Below are positions 1 through 5,243 of a DNA stretch of 32,000 bases, piece after piece. Source of the stretch: Candidatus Jordarchaeales archaeon (GTDB taxonomy: Archaea > Asgardarchaeota > Jordiarchaeia > Jordiarchaeales > Freyrarchaeaceae); NCBI GenBank assembly GCA_038889235.1, contig JAWAHN010000001.1, positions 210,001 through 242,000 of the forward strand, given 5' to 3'. The notes beneath the pieces are model-generated. The model did no database searches. It saw only the letters and a program-made list of their open reading frames with translations, and was not told the origin of the DNA. Each line of letters opens with the position of its first letter. Positions within the stretch are counted from its first letter, which is position 1. The position numbers and the translations under genes are program-made.

Positions 1-219
1 TTGAAGTTCCTGGACGACTGAGGAGAAGCTGCCTTTGAGCTCTTTCCCTAATGTTGCAGTGTCCTTCGAGGCTTTCTTAAGCTGGTTGACCATTGAAGAG
101 AAGGCTTCAACAACGCTGGAAAACGATGCTTCAACCTCTTTTTGAAGAGAGGCAAGACTGCTCCTAGCCTCACCTATCTCGCCTAGGCGGGCGTCAATCT
201 TCTGCCTTAATTTTTCCAC
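1..219 (-). CDS. Partial coiled-coil/amphipathic-helix repeat protein (N-terminal 73 aa; runs off the window edge)
   Basis: Not in the ORF track. Hand translation from GTG at 219 gives MEKLRQKIDARLGEIGEARSSLASLQKEVEASFSSVVEAFSSMVNQLKKASKDTATLGKELKGSFSSVVQELQ, open to base 1. GGAGG RBS at 233-229 overlaps the stop region of the upstream ATPase gene. Confidence 0.75.
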   Translation of the reverse strand, partial: MEKLRQKIDARLGEIGEARSSLASLQKEVEASFSSVVEAFSSMVNQLKKASKDTATLGKELKGSFSSVVQELQ

Positions 220-224
220 TTCAA

Positions 225-1943
225 TCAGCCTCCAATCTTTTCTTTAATAAGTCTGAAGTCCCTCTCTAGCGCTTTATTCCCTCTAAAAGATTTCAGGGCT
301 TTCTCGCACAGAGAGAGGGCATGGGCGGAGTCTCCAGCTTTGATGAGGTACTCGGCCGCCCTCCTGTAAAATACCCTTGAAAGCATCAAGGAACCCGCCT
401 TGAAGTACTCGTCTCCGGCATCCTCAAACATCCTAGCTGCAGACCTAGCAGACGACTTTGCCCGCCACTCGACGCCAGACTTTTCGTAGAGCTCTGAGGC
501 TTGAGCCAACATCACCCTTGCGTAGTGCAACTTTCCAGCGTCAAAGAAGAGCCTCGAAGCCGCGTCTAGAACCATTCCCGCTCTTTCGTAGTCACCCAGC
601 CTTCTGTGGAGGTCTGCCGCAATGTTAAAGAGGACGCATGCGTCGTAGAATAGTCTTTTTTCAAGTGCCTCCTTAGCGGCGTCTTCAACACTGCTAGCGA
701 GCTCGACGACTAGGGATTGAAGTTTTCTCGCCGCGAGTATTGTGGCGGAATCTTTAAACCAGTTGACGATCGTCTCGTTTACGGGCATCCCACTCTCGAC
801 TGTTTTAAGGATCAATTTTAGAAGAATGCTCGCCTTGCCATAAATCTGGTCGACATTGACAGATAGCCGCAGGTCGTGGAAGAGGGCGTCGGAGACCAGA
901 AGTATAAACGAGTCCTCGACCTCCACCAACCCCTTTTCCTTCAGTGACGCTATGGTGCTCTCGAAAATGTCGCCAAGCGACTGTTTGATGGCGTCGAGGG
1001 GGGCGAAATTGTATTCTCCCGAGATTATACGGTCTATTACGAAGGTCTCATCCCCCGAAATTTGAAAGATGCCGCCCAGCGGGTTTTCCTTTAAAAGCTC
1101 GCTTGCCTTTCTGAGTGACTCATATGTGACCCCGCGTTCACCCGAAACTGCGAGTGAGGAGTAGAGGAGTAAGCAGAGCTTGTATGGAATCCCGCCAGAG
1201 TCCTTTATCATTTCATCTACAACTTTCTCTTCTACCTTGAAACCGAGCTTCCCTGATAATTTTTGGATCAGAACACGCATGTCAGATATCGGCATGGGTC
1301 CAAGCTCGACCACGTGGAAAAGGTTACTAGCACCCCCCACTATTTCCCCCACGAAATCTCTCTCGGCGGCTACAACAAAAAACGCGGGAAAACCGCTTTC
1401 CGCGAAAACTGAAAGAACTCTCCGGAATAAAGGGTAAGCCGAGTTGTATCCAAGCCAGGCGAAGCGCTCAAAAGAGTCACAGAAAAAGAAGACAGGCCTC
1501 GTGATGGCTTCTTTCACCTTGTCCATGTCCTCCATGAAGCGCCCAATGAACAACTCCTCAAATGCGGAGTCAACTTCCTTGGGTAGGGGGGGAGGAGCGG
1601 CAAATGGCTTCTCCCCTATGAGCTTCTTGCGAGCTCCAGGAGCTAGGGAATCTAAGCGCTTCTTAACTTCTTCAAAGAAGGTTCGTGCCCTAGAGAAGGA
1701 GACTGTAAGAGGTATCGTTGTGACGCCTTCAACACTTGCAATATCCCTAAACTTGTTGAGGAGAGATGACTTGCCTATCCCGGGGATGCCCGAAACTAAA
1801 ACGGCTCTCCTAGTCTCAGAGCCAGACTTAACATCCAGTATGAATCGCTGGAAGAAGCGCACTTCATCTGACCTTCCAGTAAAAGTATCGCTCGCTGCAG
1901 GTGACAGTAAGGGCCTAAGCAACAATCCACCCCCAACCCACAT
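225..1943 (-). CDS. STAND-class P-loop ATPase with winged-helix region and C-terminal SNAP/TPR-like helical repeats
   Basis: Walker A GIPGIGKS, Walker B-like FFFCDSFE, STAND-type GxP motif (GGIPYKL), wHTH-like SLKEKGLV. C-terminal ~20-aa periodic A-x-x-L-x-x-x-x-G repeats. The true start is probably TTG at 1925/1922, after the GGGGGTGGA RBS. Confidence 0.75.
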   Translation of the reverse strand: MWVGGGLLLRPLLSPAASDTFTGRSDEVRFFQRFILDVKSGSETRRAVLVSGIPGIGKSSLLNKFRDIASVEGVTTIPLTVSFSRARTFFEEVKKRLDSLAPGARKKLIGEKPFAAPPPLPKEVDSAFEELFIGRFMEDMDKVKEAITRPVFFFCDSFERFAWLGYNSAYPLFRRVLSVFAESGFPAFFVVAAERDFVGEIVGGASNLFHVVELGPMPISDMRVLIQKLSGKLGFKVEEKVVDEMIKDSGGIPYKLCLLLYSSLAVSGERGVTYESLRKASELLKENPLGGIFQISGDETFVIDRIISGEYNFAPLDAIKQSLGDIFESTIASLKEKGLVEVEDSFILLVSDALFHDLRLSVNVDQIYGKASILLKLILKTVESGMPVNETIVNWFKDSATILAARKLQSLVVELASSVEDAAKEALEKRLFYDACVLFNIAADLHRRLGDYERAGMVLDAASRLFFDAGKLHYARVMLAQASELYEKSGVEWRAKSSARSAARMFEDAGDEYFKAGSLMLSRVFYRRAAEYLIKAGDSAHALSLCEKALKSFRGNKALERDFRLIKEKIGG

Positions 1944-2051
1944 ACACTACTAATTAGTGGACGAAACAAAAATAACTTTTTCAGAGCCTGAGGAAGACGC
2001 TATTAAATGAAGAAATAGTTTTCTTTGACGTGGGACTCATTTGCTGTTAAG

Positions 2052-2059
2052 AAAAAAAA
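2052..2059 (-). terminator. Oligo-T archaeal terminator candidate after aor
   Basis: A8 run on + strand = T8 on the coding strand, ~35 nt downstream of the aor stop, within a pyrimidine-rich tract. Confidence 0.45.
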
Positions 2060-2094
2060 CTGGAAATGGGAGAATGTTTAGAAAATGACCGCCC

Positions 2095-3933
2095 TCATAT
2101 TTTTGCTGCTATGTCTCCGAGTCCAAGCTCTTCGAGCTTTTCTTTTGTTGGTTTTCCAGTCTCCCAATCCCATTTTCTGAACTTGTAGTATTCTTTCAGG
2201 AGCACTTCCATGTTGGGTGTTTTTCCGGCTGTTGATCCTTCCTCAAGCGGGGTTATGGCTATCTTAGGAAGTTTATCATGCTGTCTTGTTACGCCAAACT
2301 TGTTGTTCAACGCTCGTTTTATGTTAAAGATCCTTTCCCCTGTCTTGCGAATAGACTCCGGCGTGTAGTCCCACCCTGTTATAGCGTTTAGGAAGTCGCA
2401 AACCATGGTTAAGGTGGCAGAGGAGAACTTGCAGAGAATCAAGGAGTCGTAGACTTCACGTACATCCTGGTATTTGACCACGGCGTCCACTCTACCTTCA
2501 AGAGTGAAGCGATCCATCTGGAGTATGTTAAGCTCCGGTATTGCTCCAACTCCCAGGTCTACTTCGTAGAAGTCGCCTCTGAGGTGGCATGCCCCCCTGT
2601 TGCCGGTAGCGTAGGATAAGGCTTGCCCAAAGAACGCCCTTGGATCATGCATTGGAATCTCGAGGCCCTTCACGTTTGCCGCTTCCTCTGGGTTCACTTT
2701 GAAGTGCTCCGCCATTCCCTTGGTTCCCTCTGCCAGTATGTTGCCTATGCCCTCCCGTTTCGCGATCATTCCTATCAACTTTATTATTGTCTCACTGTTC
2801 CCCCATTCGAGCTTCATGCCAGCGTCTTTCTTCTTTATAACTCCCTTCTCGTAAAGGTAGAAGGCGAAGGCGATGCTCACGCCGGCCGAAATTGTGTCGA
2901 TTCCGTAAACGTTGCAAAGGTGGTTCGCGTAGAGTATTGCGTCTAGATCGTAGTGTTCTAAGAGGGGGCCGAAAGCAACCATGGTCTCGTATTCGGGTGT
3001 ATCTATTTCTTTTACTCCTCTTTTGTTGTATTCCACAATTTTGCCGCACGCTACGGGGCACCCATAGCATGCATAGTTTCTCACCATGTACTTATCCTTG
3101 AACAATGCTGAACTGATCTTTTCTATCGGGAAGAGAGCGCGAGTGAAATACCTTGTAGGTGCATCACCTATCTCGAATGCCATGTCGAGGTAGCCGTAAG
3201 TTCCAAACTCCTTTAGCAGGTGGTAGAAGGGAGATGCTTCCATCAGAAGCCTGTGAAAGTCTACGAGACTCTTTAACATATCCTCATTAGCAATTTCTGC
3301 CCTTGCACTGCCAACCGCAGCCACGGCCTTAAGTTTCTTGGCGCCCATTACTGCTCCAAGCCCGCATCGCCCGGCTGCTCGACCCTCGTCGTTCATTATG
3401 GAAGCATATTTAACTTTGTTTTCCCCTCCGATACCTATGCAGGCGACTCTAACCCTCCGCTCTCCCAAGTCTTTCTTGATTATCTCTTGGGTTTCATACG
3501 TGTCCTTACCCCAGAGGTGGCTCGCATCCTTTATCTCCGCCGTCGAGTCGTGAATGAAAACATAAACAGGTTTCTCCGCGGCACCAGTAATTATGACTCC
3601 ATCTACCCCTGCCCCCTTGAGTGCTGGACCGAAAGCTCCACCAGAGCAAGCCTCCCCCCAGAAGCCATGCGCAGATTTTCCTGCAACAATATACCTGCTC
3701 CCTTGAGGAACTGCTGTTGCCGTGAAGGGCCCTGTCATGAAAGCGAGGTAGTTGTCGGGGCCTAAGGGGTTGGTTTTTGCGTCTAGAACGTCGAACAGTA
3801 GTCGAGCGGCGAGCCCGCTCCCCCCAATGAATGCCTTGGCGTCCTCCTCTTTCAGCTTTATCGTTTCAACAGAGCCCTTAGAAAGATCTATCTTCAAGAT
3901 TTTGCCGTGGTATCCATACATTGCCATCACCAA
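2095..3933 (-). CDS. aor: Aldehyde:ferredoxin oxidoreductase (tungsten AOR family)
   Basis: N-terminal YGYHGKILKIDLS, GRAAGRCGLGAVMGAKKLKAV, [4Fe-4S] ligands CYGCPVAC plus a distal Cys (SLILCKF), EYET, DTIS, NRGACH. Likely start ATG 3927, overlapping the adh TGA (TGATG). Confidence 0.93.
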   Translation of the reverse strand: MVMAMYGYHGKILKIDLSKGSVETIKLKEEDAKAFIGGSGLAARLLFDVLDAKTNPLGPDNYLAFMTGPFTATAVPQGSRYIVAGKSAHGFWGEACSGGAFGPALKGAGVDGVIITGAAEKPVYVFIHDSTAEIKDASHLWGKDTYETQEIIKKDLGERRVRVACIGIGGENKVKYASIMNDEGRAAGRCGLGAVMGAKKLKAVAAVGSARAEIANEDMLKSLVDFHRLLMEASPFYHLLKEFGTYGYLDMAFEIGDAPTRYFTRALFPIEKISSALFKDKYMVRNYACYGCPVACGKIVEYNKRGVKEIDTPEYETMVAFGPLLEHYDLDAILYANHLCNVYGIDTISAGVSIAFAFYLYEKGVIKKKDAGMKLEWGNSETIIKLIGMIAKREGIGNILAEGTKGMAEHFKVNPEEAANVKGLEIPMHDPRAFFGQALSYATGNRGACHLRGDFYEVDLGVGAIPELNILQMDRFTLEGRVDAVVKYQDVREVYDSLILCKFSSATLTMVCDFLNAITGWDYTPESIRKTGERIFNIKRALNNKFGVTRQHDKLPKIAITPLEEGSTAGKTPNMEVLLKEYYKFRKWDWETGKPTKEKLEELGLGDIAAKI

Positions 3934-5243
3934 TCCACATCTTTTCCTTCATACGCGTAATCAAACAGCTTCCTAAAGTCGTCTATACTAGCTGGCCGCG
4001 TGCTAAAGATCGCCGTCGGGTCTTCGTACGCGTACTTTACAAGAACCTCCTTCTTCTCCTCGAACTCGCTTCTACTTATCCCGAGATCCTTGATCGCTAT
4101 TGGAACACCGAGACCTGTTATGAACTCCTTGAAGAACTGAGTGAGCTTTTCAAGTGTTTTCTCCTTAGTCTTTCCTACCACGTCCAAGTCTAGGCTGAAG
4201 TTCAGCCACTTCGCAAGACCAACGTATCCATCGGTCACTTTCGCCTCAAACCTTAGGGAGTAAGGTATGAACATTCCGACCGCTCTGCCGTGATGAATGT
4301 TAAAGACTTTCCCGAAGGAGTGGCCCAGCGCGTGGGTTATAGCTGTTCCCGCGTTTCCGAAAGCCAGCCCAGCCATAGTCGCGGCTATTAACATTTTTTC
4401 TCTGGCATTCATGTTTCTGGGCTGCTTGTATACTATTGGGAGATACCTTATGATGAGCTCTATGGCTTTGAGAGCCATCGGGTCTGTTAGATCGCTTCCC
4501 CAGTTCCTGTTTATGTAGGCGTCTACCGCGTGAGCTAAGGCGTCTAAGCCTGTTCCTACAGTGAGTTCGGGAGGCATTCCAACGGTTAGCTCCGGTAGAA
4601 GTATTGCGAATTCAGGTACACACTCAGGGTGCTGCGCGGCTAGTTTTCTCGGTGGAGTCTGGCTAACGTCCGTCAATACGAAAGCCTGCGTGGCTTCGGA
4701 CCCTGTTCCAGCGGTGGTTGGTACAGCCGCCAGGTAGGCCTTCTTTCTTAGCCCCAAAGGTGTCAGAGCTTCGACCATGGAGAAGTCTATGTCAGGCCGC
4801 TCGTAGAGGATCCATGCCGCCTTAGCTGTGTCTATGGCTGAACCGCCTCCTACAGCTACTATGAGGTCTGGTTCAAACTCGCGCATTTCCTCGACTATTT
4901 CGCGCACTACTGGTATGGGTGGCTCCGGGACAGCCTTGTCACATATTTTAACAGTAAATTGCACCATTTCGAAGTAGGGTATTAGGGACTCTGCAAGGTT
5001 CCTTATGGCTTTGTCTGTAATAATGAAGGCTCGCTTCTTTTCAAGCATAGCTGCCCCGATGGACAACCCTATTACAAGGCCAAATTTTCCTATTAGGATC
5101 CTTGGACAGAGGAAATATCCTACAAGGCTGCGCATCGGCTTGGCTCCAAGCAAAGTGTAAAGCATGCGTGTCCCGTATTCATAAGGCTTCCAAGTCACTC
5201 TCCATCCCCCTTTTGAAAAAACCTCCTCAAACCCCCGAAACAC
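3927..5243 (-). CDS. Iron-containing alcohol dehydrogenase
   Basis: GGGSAIDTAK, PTTAGTGSEAT, GLDALAHAVDAY, HALGH and HHG metal ligands. Likely start GTG 5198 after GGGGGA. Confidence 0.92.
   Translation of the reverse strand: MFRGFEEVFSKGGWRVTWKPYEYGTRMLYTLLGAKPMRSLVGYFLCPRILIGKFGLVIGLSIGAAMLEKKRAFIITDKAIRNLAESLIPYFEMVQFTVKICDKAVPEPPIPVVREIVEEMREFEPDLIVAVGGGSAIDTAKAAWILYERPDIDFSMVEALTPLGLRKKAYLAAVPTTAGTGSEATQAFVLTDVSQTPPRKLAAQHPECVPEFAILLPELTVGMPPELTVGTGLDALAHAVDAYINRNWGSDLTDPMALKAIELIIRYLPIVYKQPRNMNAREKMLIAATMAGLAFGNAGTAITHALGHSFGKVFNIHHGRAVGMFIPYSLRFEAKVTDGYVGLAKWLNFSLDLDVVGKTKEKTLEKLTQFFKEFITGLGVPIAIKDLGISRSEFEEKKEVLVKYAYEDPTAIFSTRPASIDDFRKLFDYAYEGKDVDW

What the first reader, a model, noticed from the sequence alone, without database searches (positions are those of the whole stretch)
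1..233. Unannotated coiled-coil gene with a 32-aa repeat, translationally coupled to the STAND ATPase
Seen: an ORF absent from the track starts at GTG 219, with its RBS inside the last codons of the ATPase gene. It repeats a unit at 32-aa spacing (LQKEVEASFSSVVEAF at aa 25-40, LGKELKGSFSSVVQEL at aa 57-72) with amphipathic heptad character. Inference: this is the missing in-trans partner or effector of the STAND-SNAP protein, possibly a filament-, membrane- or helical-bundle-forming protein. A SNAP-like solenoid next to a helical-bundle protein loosely recalls SNAP/SNARE, but only 73 aa are visible.
Basis: partly seen in the sequence, partly recalled or inferred. Interest (0 to 1): 0.62.

Follow-up and report, generated by a model that had tools for sequence, protein, structure and literature searches.

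The report
Asgard hendecad rod protein beside ATPase
The window's left edge holds the start of a 767-residue, all-helical rod protein that sits between a switch-type ATPase gene and a giant DNA-binding rod gene in a three-gene set conserved across Asgard archaea, and no paper I could find describes it.

Summary
The ORF is real. It starts at GTG 219 on the minus strand, 5 nt after the ATPase stop, with GGAGG inside the ATPase's last codons. It runs 767 aa beyond the window edge. It is not a 32-aa heptad repeat. It is one unbroken 11-residue (hendecad) register: about 70 repeats, no proline, no membrane segment.

The genome is an Asgard archaeon (true actin, ESCRT-II, Ras GTPases). ATPase, rod and a 1,806-aa protein (TrmB winged helix, ~1,550-aa hendecad rod, TrmBL2-like C-domain) form a tight operon. 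A hendecad gene directly follows the ATPase in all 18 orthologous loci inspected.

In 26 full-length family members of 411-769 aa, the conserved core lies at 0.50-0.52 of the length. The two arms therefore pair antiparallel, as a ~57-nm fold-back (favoured) or a ~114-nm antiparallel dimer. Gene 3 shows paired compensating indels.

Function is unknown. My best guess is an ATP-switched, DNA-anchored long-arm scaffold. SNAP/SNARE, apolipoprotein and ZorA resemblances fail membership tests. Binding to the ATPase remains untested: one complex prediction gave no verdict. Earlier notes of this scan found the same operon in other Asgard genomes.

The parts
1..219 (-). First 73 codons of gene 2, a 767-aa hendecad rod protein. 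The whole gene is G000:C1:207916-210219 (minus strand), so 2,085 nt lie left of the window.
   Evidence: ORF listing; full ORF read from the genome; 13 orthologues aligned; single hendecad register, R = 0.94; all-helical AF2 model.
217..219 (-). GTG start codon of gene 2.
   Evidence: Orthologue N-termini align from residue 1.
229..233 (-). GGAGG Shine-Dalgarno-like site inside the last codons of the ATPase gene, 9 nt upstream of the GTG.
   Evidence: Read directly from the sequence. That it functions as a ribosome-binding site is inferred.
225..1943 (-). Gene 1: a 572-aa STAND-type P-loop NTPase with C-terminal TPR-like helical repeats. Its stop is 5 nt before the gene 2 start.
   Evidence: Pfam AAA_16 37.1 bits (cut-off 32.6) and nSTAND1 35.3 bits (cut-off 27.1); SNAP 20.5 bits (below 25). 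P-loop G55/G57/K58 and D156 are conserved in 13 orthologues. No PADLOC hit.
1944..2094 (-). Intergenic region upstream of the ATPase gene. It has a T-run after the upstream aldehyde-oxidoreductase gene and A/T-rich TATA-like stretches before the ATPase ATG, so it is the likely operon promoter.
   Evidence: Sequence read. Promoter function is inferred and was not tested.

Best explanation
The finding is the 5' end of the middle gene of a three-gene operon of an Asgard archaeon: (1) a STAND-type ATPase with TPR-like repeats, (2) this 767-aa rod-only protein, and (3) a 1,806-aa protein with a TrmB winged-helix DNA-binding domain, about 1,550 aa of hendecad rod and a TrmBL2-like C-terminal domain.

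Shown. Gene 2 is entirely alpha-helical and has no proline or membrane segment. It keeps one hendecad register (core positions a, d, h, partly e) for about 70 repeats. Its conserved central module always sits at the exact middle of the chain, whatever the total length.

Inferred. The two halves pair antiparallel. Most likely the chain folds back on itself into a rod of about 57 nm with a conserved ~30-residue cap; an antiparallel dimer of about 114 nm is the alternative. Gene 3 is built the same way, so its DNA-binding head and C-domain come together at the base of an arm of about 114 nm.

Proposed mechanism, inferred and unproven. The rods form a DNA-anchored long-arm scaffold. Its assembly or bridging is switched by nucleotide-dependent oligomerisation of the ATPase, whose TPR-like repeats would hold a conserved part of the rods. 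Gene 2 would be the rod-only adaptor or spacer, made in step with the ATPase. I put about 0.9 on the identity and architecture and about 0.35 on the scaffold function.
For: ORF and junctions.

Hendecad register: lag 22/11 autocorrelation and a 3.67-residue peak at 71x mean power. Phase coherence R = 0.94, against a maximum of 0.59 in 500 shuffles and 0.78 in 500 block-rotated controls. Positions a, d, h are 79/67/80% hydrophobic.

Operon conservation: all 12 orthologous loci have ATPase then a hendecad gene; 10 of these also show the wHTH giant, and 2 are cut by contig ends. The 6 fetched of the 16 genomes without a profile hit also have a hendecad gene directly downstream. Spacers or overlaps are 30 nt or less.

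Phylum sample: a strong ATPase match in 75 of 301 genomes, complete within families (f5 29/29, f14 11/11, f16 5/5, f2 6/6), and no second strong full-length ATPase match in any genome. Identity to G000 falls with rank (77%, 69-73%, 41-43%, 21-29%). That fits vertical inheritance.

Equal arms: 12 of 13 orthologues (425-773 aa) split within 7 aa at one alignment column. 26 of 32 proteins of 800 aa or less with a core hit have the core at 0.497-0.518 of their length.

AF2 model: four helices with breaks at 202-205, 382-384 and 559-563, i.e. at the midpoint and at a mirror pair.

Gene 3: TrmB wHTH 32 bits, above the cut-off of 25.6. C-domain model pLDDT 84.6, best fold matches TrmBL2 5bpd (E 4e-8) and TrmB 2f5t/3qph. 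Paired indels are centred on the rod midpoint.

Asgard host: actin 464 bits and ESCRT-II 49.8 bits; Ras GTPases and Roadblock. Family members are named only 'hypothetical protein' in Freyarchaeota, Wukongarchaeota and Kariarchaeaceae.
Against: No experiment or prediction shows that the three proteins bind each other.

The apex of the AF2 model has pLDDT below 50 (residues 368-395). Only one of the five models reaches a mean pLDDT of 71.6 (the others are 53-61), and pTM is 0.43. A monomer prediction will fold a sticky helix back on itself whatever the true oligomer is.

There is no conserved Gly/Pro/Asn at the exact centre, and the hendecad phase runs through it without a dip. That fits a continuous helix as well.

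Mirror symmetry of Gly/Pro positions is not above chance: 21 observed vs 22.2 expected, P = 0.64, in 16 proteins.

Two orthologues (G028, G012) have register shifts (R = 0.57 and 0.67).

One 432-aa protein (P0116, weak core hit of 28 bits) has the core at 0.755 of its length.

DNA binding by gene 3 is inferred from domain identity only.

Transcription evidence is weak. Contigs of a ~97% identical strain occur in one RNA library, where DNA carry-over cannot be excluded, and there were no reads in the 3% sampled of a raw-read RNA run.
Confidence: 0.5

Rival explanations
1. Same operon and same antiparallel pairing, but gene 2 does not fold back. Two continuous 767-residue helices pair antiparallel into a rod of about 114 nm, with the conserved module at the dyad.
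For: The hendecad phase and amplitude are unbroken through the midpoint, with no proline anywhere. There is no conserved helix breaker at the centre. The equal-arm rule is predicted by this model as well. AF2 confidence is lowest at the supposed apex.
Against: AF2 places a break at 382-384, exactly at the comparative midpoint. Breaker-prone positions flank the centre at about -17 and +13 in most members. For gene 3, a fold-back keeps the TrmB head and C-domain of one chain together, as in TrmB and TrmBL2.
Confidence: 0.3
2. A STAND-controlled DNA regulator split over several genes. The ATPase with its TPR sensor would switch a TrmB-type DNA-binding protein in trans, by analogy with MalT/LAL-type regulators that carry the HTH in cis (this analogy is recalled, not tested). 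The rods would serve oligomerisation or DNA bridging for gene regulation or chromatin compaction, not a structural tether.
For: AAA_16/nSTAND1 plus TPR-like repeats. Gene 3 has a TrmB wHTH and a TrmBL2-like C-domain. In two families the ATPase is followed directly by the wHTH-rod protein with no gene 2.
Against: Nothing explains why a regulator would need arms over 100 nm long and a separate rod-only protein. wHTH-rod paralogues occur without the ATPase in most of the phylum (287 of 301 genomes carry the C-domain against 75 with a strong ATPase match).
Confidence: 0.15
3. A conflict or defence module: the STAND NTPase senses an invader, and the rods act like the ZorA tail or another coiled-coil effector or signal conduit.
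For: The nSTAND1 family is common in conflict systems (family knowledge, recalled). Gene 2 and gene 3 score 70 and 100 bits against the tail part of the PADLOC ZorA models and 41-59 bits against NCBIfam ZorA.
Against: The ATPase has no PADLOC hit. The ZorA matches cover only the helical tail and are far below NCBIfam's cut-offs (190-700 bits). There is no MotA/ExbB membrane part, nuclease, protease or TM domain. The module has no second strong full-length ATPase match in any genome, is complete within families, and its identity tracks taxonomy, unlike patchy defence islands.
Confidence: 0.08
4. A lipid- or membrane-coating amphipathic helix protein of the apolipoprotein, perilipin or LEA type.
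For: Pfam Apolipoprotein A1/A4/E 78 bits on the first 573 aa. The profile matches ApoA-IV (E 7e-13) and ApoA-I in the PDB. The periodicity is 11/22 residues.
Against: The score is below Pfam's cut-off of 90. There are no proline-punctuated 22-mers (0 Pro). The hydrophobic stripe is narrow (3-4 of 11 positions) and made of Leu/Val/Ile/Phe, as in coiled-coil cores. The equal-arm rule has no rationale for a surface-bound helix. The operon partner has DNA-binding ends.
Confidence: 0.07
5. One reading: a SNAP-like solenoid acting on a SNARE-like helical bundle protein.
For: A weak Pfam SNAP match of the ATPase C-terminus (E 3.6e-4), and the Asgard host.
Against: The SNAP score of 20.5 is below the cut-off of 25. 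Gene 2 has no TM anchor, no heptads and is 767 aa long, not a SNARE motif of about 60 aa.
Confidence: 0.02

Closest known systems
TrmBL2 and TrmB of Thermococcales (PDB 5bpd, 5bpi, 5bqt, 5box; 2f5t, 3qph). This applies to gene 3, the operon partner.
   Same: An N-terminal TrmB winged helix (PF01978 above cut-off) and a C-terminal PLD-fold domain whose best fold matches are TrmBL2 and TrmB (E 4e-8 to 3e-7). The helical linker sits between them.
   Different: The short dimerising helix is replaced by about 1,550 aa of hendecads. There is no sugar-binding barrel. The gene is encoded with a STAND ATPase and a rod-only protein. Sequence similarity of the C-domain is marginal (E about 0.01).
Arms of SMC, Rad50, MukB and JetC (fold-back antiparallel coiled coils)
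   Same: Long antiparallel arms of equal length with a special module at the apex. Indels are compensated in both arms. These proteins are among the top, though weak, fold matches of the gene 2 model. The system is also associated with DNA-binding ends and an ATPase.
   Different: There are no ABC ATPase heads and no hinge domain. The periodicity is pure hendecad. The ATPase is a separate STAND protein. TM-scores are 0.18 or less, so this is a likeness of shape, not shown homology.
ZorA cytoplasmic tail (Zorya defence; PMC11946911, passages read)
   Same: A very long, proline-poor helical tail with a right-handed supercoil, which is what hendecads give. Gene 2 and gene 3 hit the tail part of the ZorA profiles.
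   Different: There is no MotA/ExbB membrane domain and no ZorB/C/D partners. Scores are far below family cut-offs. ZorA tails are parallel pentamers, whereas here the arms are antiparallel.
Apolipoprotein A-I / A-IV / apolipophorin-III
   Same: An 11/22-residue amphipathic periodicity, with profile matches to E 7e-13.
   Different: Below the Pfam cut-off for gene 2. No proline punctuation. A narrow coiled-coil-type core. A cytoplasmic archaeal protein in a DNA-linked operon.
MalT/LAL-type STAND regulators (recalled, not tested)
   Same: An AAA_16-type NTPase followed by TPR-like repeats and linked to an HTH DNA-binding function.
   Different: The HTH is on a separate giant protein. No LuxR domain. 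No known ligand.

Membership tests
   Power is 1.3 at 3.50 against 88.3 at 3.667.
Hendecad (11/3) coiled coil | 3.67-residue periodicity with a, d, e, h core positions | tested here: met
   Peak at 3.67 (71x mean). Positions a, d, h are 79/67/80% hydrophobic and e is 40%. The register is coherent over 767 aa (R = 0.94).
Hendecad (11/3) coiled coil | Defined oligomer and strand orientation | tested here: inconclusive
   Antiparallel pairing of equal arms is supported. Hairpin versus antiparallel dimer is not resolved.
Apolipoprotein A1/A4/E (PF01442) | Score above Pfam's gathering cut-off (90 bits) | tested here: not met
   78.2 bits on the first 573 aa of gene 2. Gene 3 reaches 157.5 bits over 7 stretches, which I read as repeat texture.
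Apolipoprotein A1/A4/E (PF01442) | Proline-punctuated 22-mers (recalled feature) | tested here: not met
   0 Pro in 767 aa.
ZorA (Zorya) | MotA/ExbB-type membrane domain; score above the NCBIfam cut-off | tested here: not met
   Hits cover only the tail positions of the profiles. Scores are 22-41 bits against cut-offs of 190-700. No TM segment.
SNARE / SNAP pair | SNAP family score above cut-off for the solenoid; short heptad SNARE motif and TM anchor for the partner | tested here: not met
   SNAP 20.5 bits, below 25. No heptads and no TM segment.
STAND NTPase (gene 1) | AAA_16/nSTAND NTPase module above cut-off, with conserved Walker A and B | tested here: met
   AAA_16 37.1 bits (cut-off 32.6) and nSTAND1 35.3 bits (cut-off 27.1). 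G55, G57, K58 and D156 are invariant or nearly so.
Known anti-phage STAND systems (PADLOC) | A match to any PADLOC model | tested here: not met
   0 families for the ATPase.
TrmB / TrmBL2 (gene 3) | TrmB winged helix above cut-off | tested here: met
   32 bits (cut-off 25.6) when the N-terminal 110 aa are scanned alone, but only 22.6 bits in the whole protein.
TrmB / TrmBL2 (gene 3) | PLD-fold C-terminal domain like that of TrmB/TrmBL2 | tested here: met
   AF2 pLDDT 84.6. Foldseek best matches are 5bpd, 2f5t, 5bpi, 5bqt and 3qph at E 4e-8 to 1e-7, TM about 0.5.
TrmB (sugar-sensing regulator) | Sugar-binding barrel subdomain; NCBIfam equivalog score | tested here: not met
   NF040851 scores 33.7 bits against a cut-off of 600. 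The C-domain is only about 120 residues.
SMC superfamily | ABC-type ATPase head halves at both termini and a hinge at the apex | tested here: not met
   No SMC_N or hinge hits in gene 2 or gene 3, whereas the true SMC next door has both.

The most novel reading that the evidence does not exclude
Asgard archaea carry a phylum-wide family of DNA-anchored helical arms of about 100 nm. In a large subclade these arms are joined by a rod-only adaptor and a STAND ATPase switch. Together they would form an SMC-independent apparatus that tethers or spaces the chromosome relative to the envelope or the actin cytoskeleton, a nucleoskeleton-like device in the closest prokaryotic relatives of eukaryotes.
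Probability: 0.2. Interest if true: 0.9.

Novelty: categorically new. Interest (0 to 1): 0.72.

Why it matters
Asgard archaea are the closest known relatives of eukaryotes, and how they organise their DNA and cytoplasm is an open question. I found three related things.

- A protein family present in 287 of 301 sampled genomes of the phylum, built from a TrmB head, a very long rod and a TrmBL2-like domain.
- A conserved operon in a large subclade that adds a switch ATPase and a rod-only protein.
- A simple rule (the core is always at mid-chain, and indels are paired) that fixes the architecture of these rods without any structure.

None of eight literature searches found a description of this set, and all named members are 'hypothetical protein'. 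The proteins are soluble, have no cysteine or proline problems, and should be easy to express. The architecture (57 nm or 114 nm), ATPase binding and DNA binding are therefore all directly testable. Earlier notes of this scan reached the same operon in Heimdall-group genomes, so this window extends it to a Freyarchaeota-like lineage and is not a first sighting.

Tried and rejected
1. Word-based protein searches with gene 2, whole and with residues 335-480, returned nothing at E <= 1e-3. The cause is probably low-complexity words, so this says nothing about rarity.
2. ESM Atlas: no feature score of 0.9 or more and no TM above 0.27, so no family could be named.
3. Complex prediction of the full-length ATPase (556 aa) with the rod (436 aa) of the orthologous pair from G059 gave 'no answer' (score 0.00, mark 0.32). 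This is neither for nor against binding. The G000 pair itself was too long for the tool.
4. Mirror symmetry of Gly/Pro positions about the chain centre: 21 observed vs 22.2 expected, P = 0.64. This gives no support, and the G206/G562 match in this protein is not a general feature.
5. Gene 2's central module was sought at the midpoint of gene 3 rods. Only scattered hits of 27 bits or less were found, so there is no shared apex module.
6. The neighbours of the other three rod paralogues in G000 show no recurring partner.
7. The convergent SMC/ScpAB-like genes are next to the operon only in G000 and in none of the other loci inspected, so I rejected them as part of the system.
8. The search for related loci with the ATPase in genome contigs returned a single locus. 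Its title says 'Thermoproteota archaeon', which I reject as the lineage in view.
9. RNA evidence: the raw-read run X5 gave 0 reads in the ~3% read, X7 gave none, and X4 contigs are suggestive only.
10. Fold search with the gene 2 model gave TM 0.18 or less. This is a likeness of shape only.
11. Literature searches (listings and abstracts; passages of PMC4870337, PMC11946911, PMC10936438 and 10.64898/2026.07.02.735847 read) found no description of the operon. Supplements were not opened.
Full report
**1. What is at the coordinates.**

On the minus strand an ORF starts with GTG at window 219..217 and runs off the left edge of the window, so only 73 aa are visible. The 572-aa ATPase gene (window 225-1943, minus strand) ends with TGA at 227..225. 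Five nucleotides separate that stop from the GTG, and GGAGG (233..229) lies within the last ATPase codons.

The window is G000:C1:210001-242000 of a 2.14-Mb, 8-contig genome that is 95% complete. Read in the genome, the ORF is 767 aa long (C1:207916-210219). Orthologues begin at the aligned position (MEKIQQ...), which supports the GTG start.

**2. The repeat is hendecad, not a 32-aa heptad unit.**

The protein has 17% Ser, 14% Glu, no Pro and no Cys.
- Autocorrelation peaks at lags 22 (z 10.4) and 11 (z 8.7). Lag 32 has z 0.9.
- Hydrophobic power is 88.3 at 3.667 residues and 1.3 at 3.5.
- The local phase of the 11/3 wave stays within a few tens of degrees from residue ~30 to ~740. Coherence is R = 0.94, against a maximum of 0.59 in 500 residue shuffles and 0.78 in 500 controls that keep local periodicity but rotate 44-residue blocks.
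- Folded modulo 11, positions a, d, h are 79, 67 and 80% hydrophobic (Leu, Val, Ile, Phe) and e is 40%. The rest is Ser, Glu and Lys.
- Four of the six orthologues checked are equally coherent (R = 0.88-0.97). Two have one or two register shifts (0.57 and 0.67).
They are the only such pair, and 10% of 200 shuffles produce one.
- No 19-residue window approaches transmembrane hydrophobicity in any of the three proteins.

**3. The neighbourhood.**

Seven nucleotides after gene 2's stop, a 1,806-aa ORF starts on the same strand (C1:202488-207908).
- Its first 110 aa pass Pfam's TrmB winged-helix cut-off when scanned alone (32 vs 25.6 bits; 22.6 bits in the whole protein).
- About 1,550 aa of hendecads follow (period 3.65).
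- The last ~120 aa fold with pLDDT 90-97. Their best matches among solved structures are TrmBL2 (5bpd, E 4e-8) and TrmB (2f5t, 3qph), followed by the wider PLD fold. By sequence alone the match to TrmB is marginal (E about 0.01).

Upstream, the ATPase passes AAA_16 and nSTAND1 cut-offs. Its C-terminal TPR-like part scores below the SNAP cut-off. It has no hit in PADLOC.

A T-run follows the preceding oxidoreductase gene, and A/T-rich elements precede the ATPase start. A hairpin and a T-run follow gene 3. The three genes therefore look like one operon. This is inferred.

**4. The organism.**

One relative's contig is titled 'Thermoproteota archaeon'. However, G000 encodes:
- a true actin (464 bits);
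- ESCRT-II/Vps25 (49.8 bits, above the cut-off and ringing in none of the 14 control genomes);
- Ras-family GTPases (183-197 bits) and a Roadblock protein.

Profilin was not found. The closest relative of gene 2 in public databases is a 'hypothetical protein' of Candidatus Freyarchaeota, and others are from Wukongarchaeota and Kariarchaeaceae. I conclude that this is an Asgard archaeon. Near-identical DNA occurs in hot-spring metagenomes.

**5. Conservation.**

- The ATPase has a match in 21 of 41 relatives' genomes. With a 13-sequence profile it matches 97 of 301 genomes of the phylum sample at E <= 1e-5.
- By my count of the table, strong matches (E <= 1e-40) occur in 75 genomes. They are complete within several families (f5 29/29, f14 11/11, f16 5/5, f2 6/6) and lacking or only weak in others (f7 10/76 weak, f12 0/19). 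No genome has a second strong full-length match.
- Identity to G000 falls with rank: 77% in the same genus, 69-73% in the same family, 41-43% in the same order and 21-29% beyond.
- I paired the tables by hand. Of the 75 genomes, 52 have a gene 2 profile hit directly downstream on the same strand. Seven cannot be assessed because of contig ends. Sixteen have no listed hit.
- I fetched 6 of those 16, and all 6 have a hendecad ORF directly downstream. With the 12 loci fetched first, that makes 18 of 18 orthologous loci inspected.
- Architectures vary. Most loci have ATPase, then a 411-773-aa rod, then a wHTH giant. One family has ATPase then a 718-721-aa rod with no adjacent giant. Two families have ATPase followed directly by a 1,110-1,123-aa wHTH rod.
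- Junctions are overlaps or spacers of 30 nt or less (coordinates; the starts are first-start-codon calls).
- The gene 3 C-domain profile matches 287 of 301 genomes (87 of 90 high-quality ones), with 1-7 copies per genome, mostly in ORFs of 750-1,816 aa. G000 has four such paralogues (1,806, 1,308, 756 and 565 aa), one rod-only protein and one ATPase.
- An exhaustive profile search of 1.84 billion representatives gave 10 proteins at E <= 1e-30, 345 at <= 1e-10 and 3,180 at <= 1e-3. The weaker ones are largely other hendecad proteins.

**6. Architecture from comparison.**

Earlier notes of this scan proposed that such rods fold back. I tested this independently.
- In the 13-sequence alignment, one column (reference residue 383) splits each protein into halves that differ by 1-7 aa in 12 of 13 cases, although lengths range from 425 to 773 aa. 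The exception (225/200) has an internal Met that would give 203/200.
- A profile of the conserved central module was located in the 150 best database hits plus four divergent loci. Of 32 proteins of 800 aa or less with a hit, 26 (411-769 aa, at least seven length classes, including the reference itself) have the module at 0.497-0.518 of their length.
- The other six are three fragments (265-305 aa), one N-terminally truncated entry (0.447) and two weak hits (28 and 16 bits, at 0.755 and 0.342).
- In gene 3, two same-genus pairs differ by paired deletions. In G028 vs G038, 33 aa at 311 pairs with 33 at 1123, and 40 at 536 pairs with 33 at 912. Both pairs are centred on residue ~733-740, which is the rod's midpoint.
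- In G007 vs G006, 334 aa are missing from the N-arm and 315 from the C-arm, centred on ~880.
- The AF2 model of gene 2 (mean pLDDT 71.6, pTM 0.43) is four helices, with breaks at 202-205, 382-384 and 559-563. These are the comparative midpoint and a mirror pair.

All this shows that the two halves pair antiparallel. It does not by itself tell a hairpin (~383 residues x ~0.148 nm ≈ 57 nm) from an antiparallel dimer of continuous helices (~114 nm).
- For the dimer: the centre has no conserved Gly/Pro/Asn, the register runs through it, and the model's apex has pLDDT below 50.
- For the hairpin: breaker-prone positions at about -17 and +13 flank the centre in most members.
- A test for mirror-symmetric Gly/Pro positions was negative (P = 0.64).
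- The gene 2 central module has no counterpart at gene 3's midpoint.

**7. What it probably does.**

Shown:
- a conserved operon of a STAND ATPase, a rod-only protein and a TrmB/TrmBL2-type protein with a giant arm;
- a pattern like vertical inheritance;
- no effector, membrane or enzyme domain.

Inferred:
- gene 3 binds DNA through a TrmBL2-like body and projects an arm of about 114 nm;
- gene 2 is a rod-only partner made in step with the ATPase;
- the ATPase oligomerises on nucleotide binding and holds the rods through its TPR-like part.

This amounts to an ATP-switched, DNA-anchored long-arm scaffold. I give about 0.35 to this function and about 0.9 to the architecture. The fields above weigh each of them.

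**8. Comparison with known families.**

Apolipoprotein, ZorA-tail, LmuB and LeoB matches reflect hendecad texture and fail the defining features of those families. The ZorA tail is a right-handed pentameric coiled coil of about 70 nm (PMC11946911, passages read), which is a useful physical analogue. SMC, MukB, JetC and Rad50 arms are the closest in design, but only weakly similar by fold (TM 0.18 or less).

**9. Expression.**

One metatranscriptome holds contigs of a ~97%-identical strain over 20 of 30 bins spanning all three genes, including 1,113 nt inside gene 2. DNA carry-over cannot be excluded. A raw-read RNA run showed nothing in the ~3% that was read.

**10. Verdict.**

- The object is a member of an undescribed, Asgard-wide gene set. 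Eight literature searches found no description of it, and earlier notes of this scan (unchecked AI leads, which I partly re-tested) had already met the same operon in other Asgard lineages.

Noticed in passing
L002:4113-8479 (G000:C1:198113-202479, + strand), just beyond gene 3 and convergent with it: A true SMC gene (1,117 aa; SMC_N 107 bits and hinge 53 bits) is followed by 190-aa and 152-aa genes. The latter has a TrmB/AbiEi-like wHTH, so it may be ScpA/ScpB-like. This adjacency to the rod operon is seen only in G000 and in none of the other loci inspected.
   Followed up: partly
L041:5910-9836:+ (G000:C1:689910-693836): A 1,308-aa paralogue has a clear TrmB wHTH (50.9 bits), the strongest hendecad power in the genome (85) and the same C-domain. 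Many database relatives have almost the same length (1,297-1,308 aa), which suggests a length-constrained arm. An upstream 294-aa gene with no Pfam hit overlaps its start by 4 nt.
   Followed up: partly
L043:6009-7706:- with neighbours L043:7856-8371:+, L043:9164-9694:- and L043:11326-11688:-: The 565-aa rod paralogue lies beside two Ras-family small GTPase genes (183 and 197 bits), an Ssb-like OB-fold gene and a Roadblock/LC7 gene. This is a typical Asgard 'eukaryote-like' cluster.
   Followed up: partly
L034:4899-7154:-, L035:6245-8500:+, L036:5603-7858:-: One family of the phylum (f9) lacks a strong full-length ATPase match (only 2 of 68 genomes have weak partial hits). It has stand-alone 751-766-aa proteins with a wHTH, a hendecad rod and the same C-domain, highly conserved in length across dozens of genomes.
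   Followed up: partly
L017:5159-9757:+ versus L022:5659-9840:-: Three of the four length differences between these two gene 3 orthologues are exactly 33 aa (three hendecads). The rods therefore grow and shrink in whole-repeat, register-preserving steps.
   Followed up: partly
L002:9380-13807 and L002:14004-16004, + strand: Long Ser-rich ORFs (176-340 aa, 19-25% Ser) lie antisense to the rod genes. They look like shadow frames of the Glu/Ser/Leu-rich coding strand, not real genes.
   Followed up: no
L027 (contig JAPDJY010000070.1): A same-family relative's public contig is titled 'Thermoproteota archaeon', although the lineage carries actin, ESCRT-II and Ras GTPases and its rod protein's nearest named relative is from Freyarchaeota. 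The label is probably wrong.
   Followed up: partly
window 2095-5243, minus strand: Directly upstream of the operon are an aldehyde:ferredoxin oxidoreductase-like gene (612 aa) and an iron-type alcohol dehydrogenase-like gene (438 aa). I identified them from the look of their translations only.
   Followed up: no
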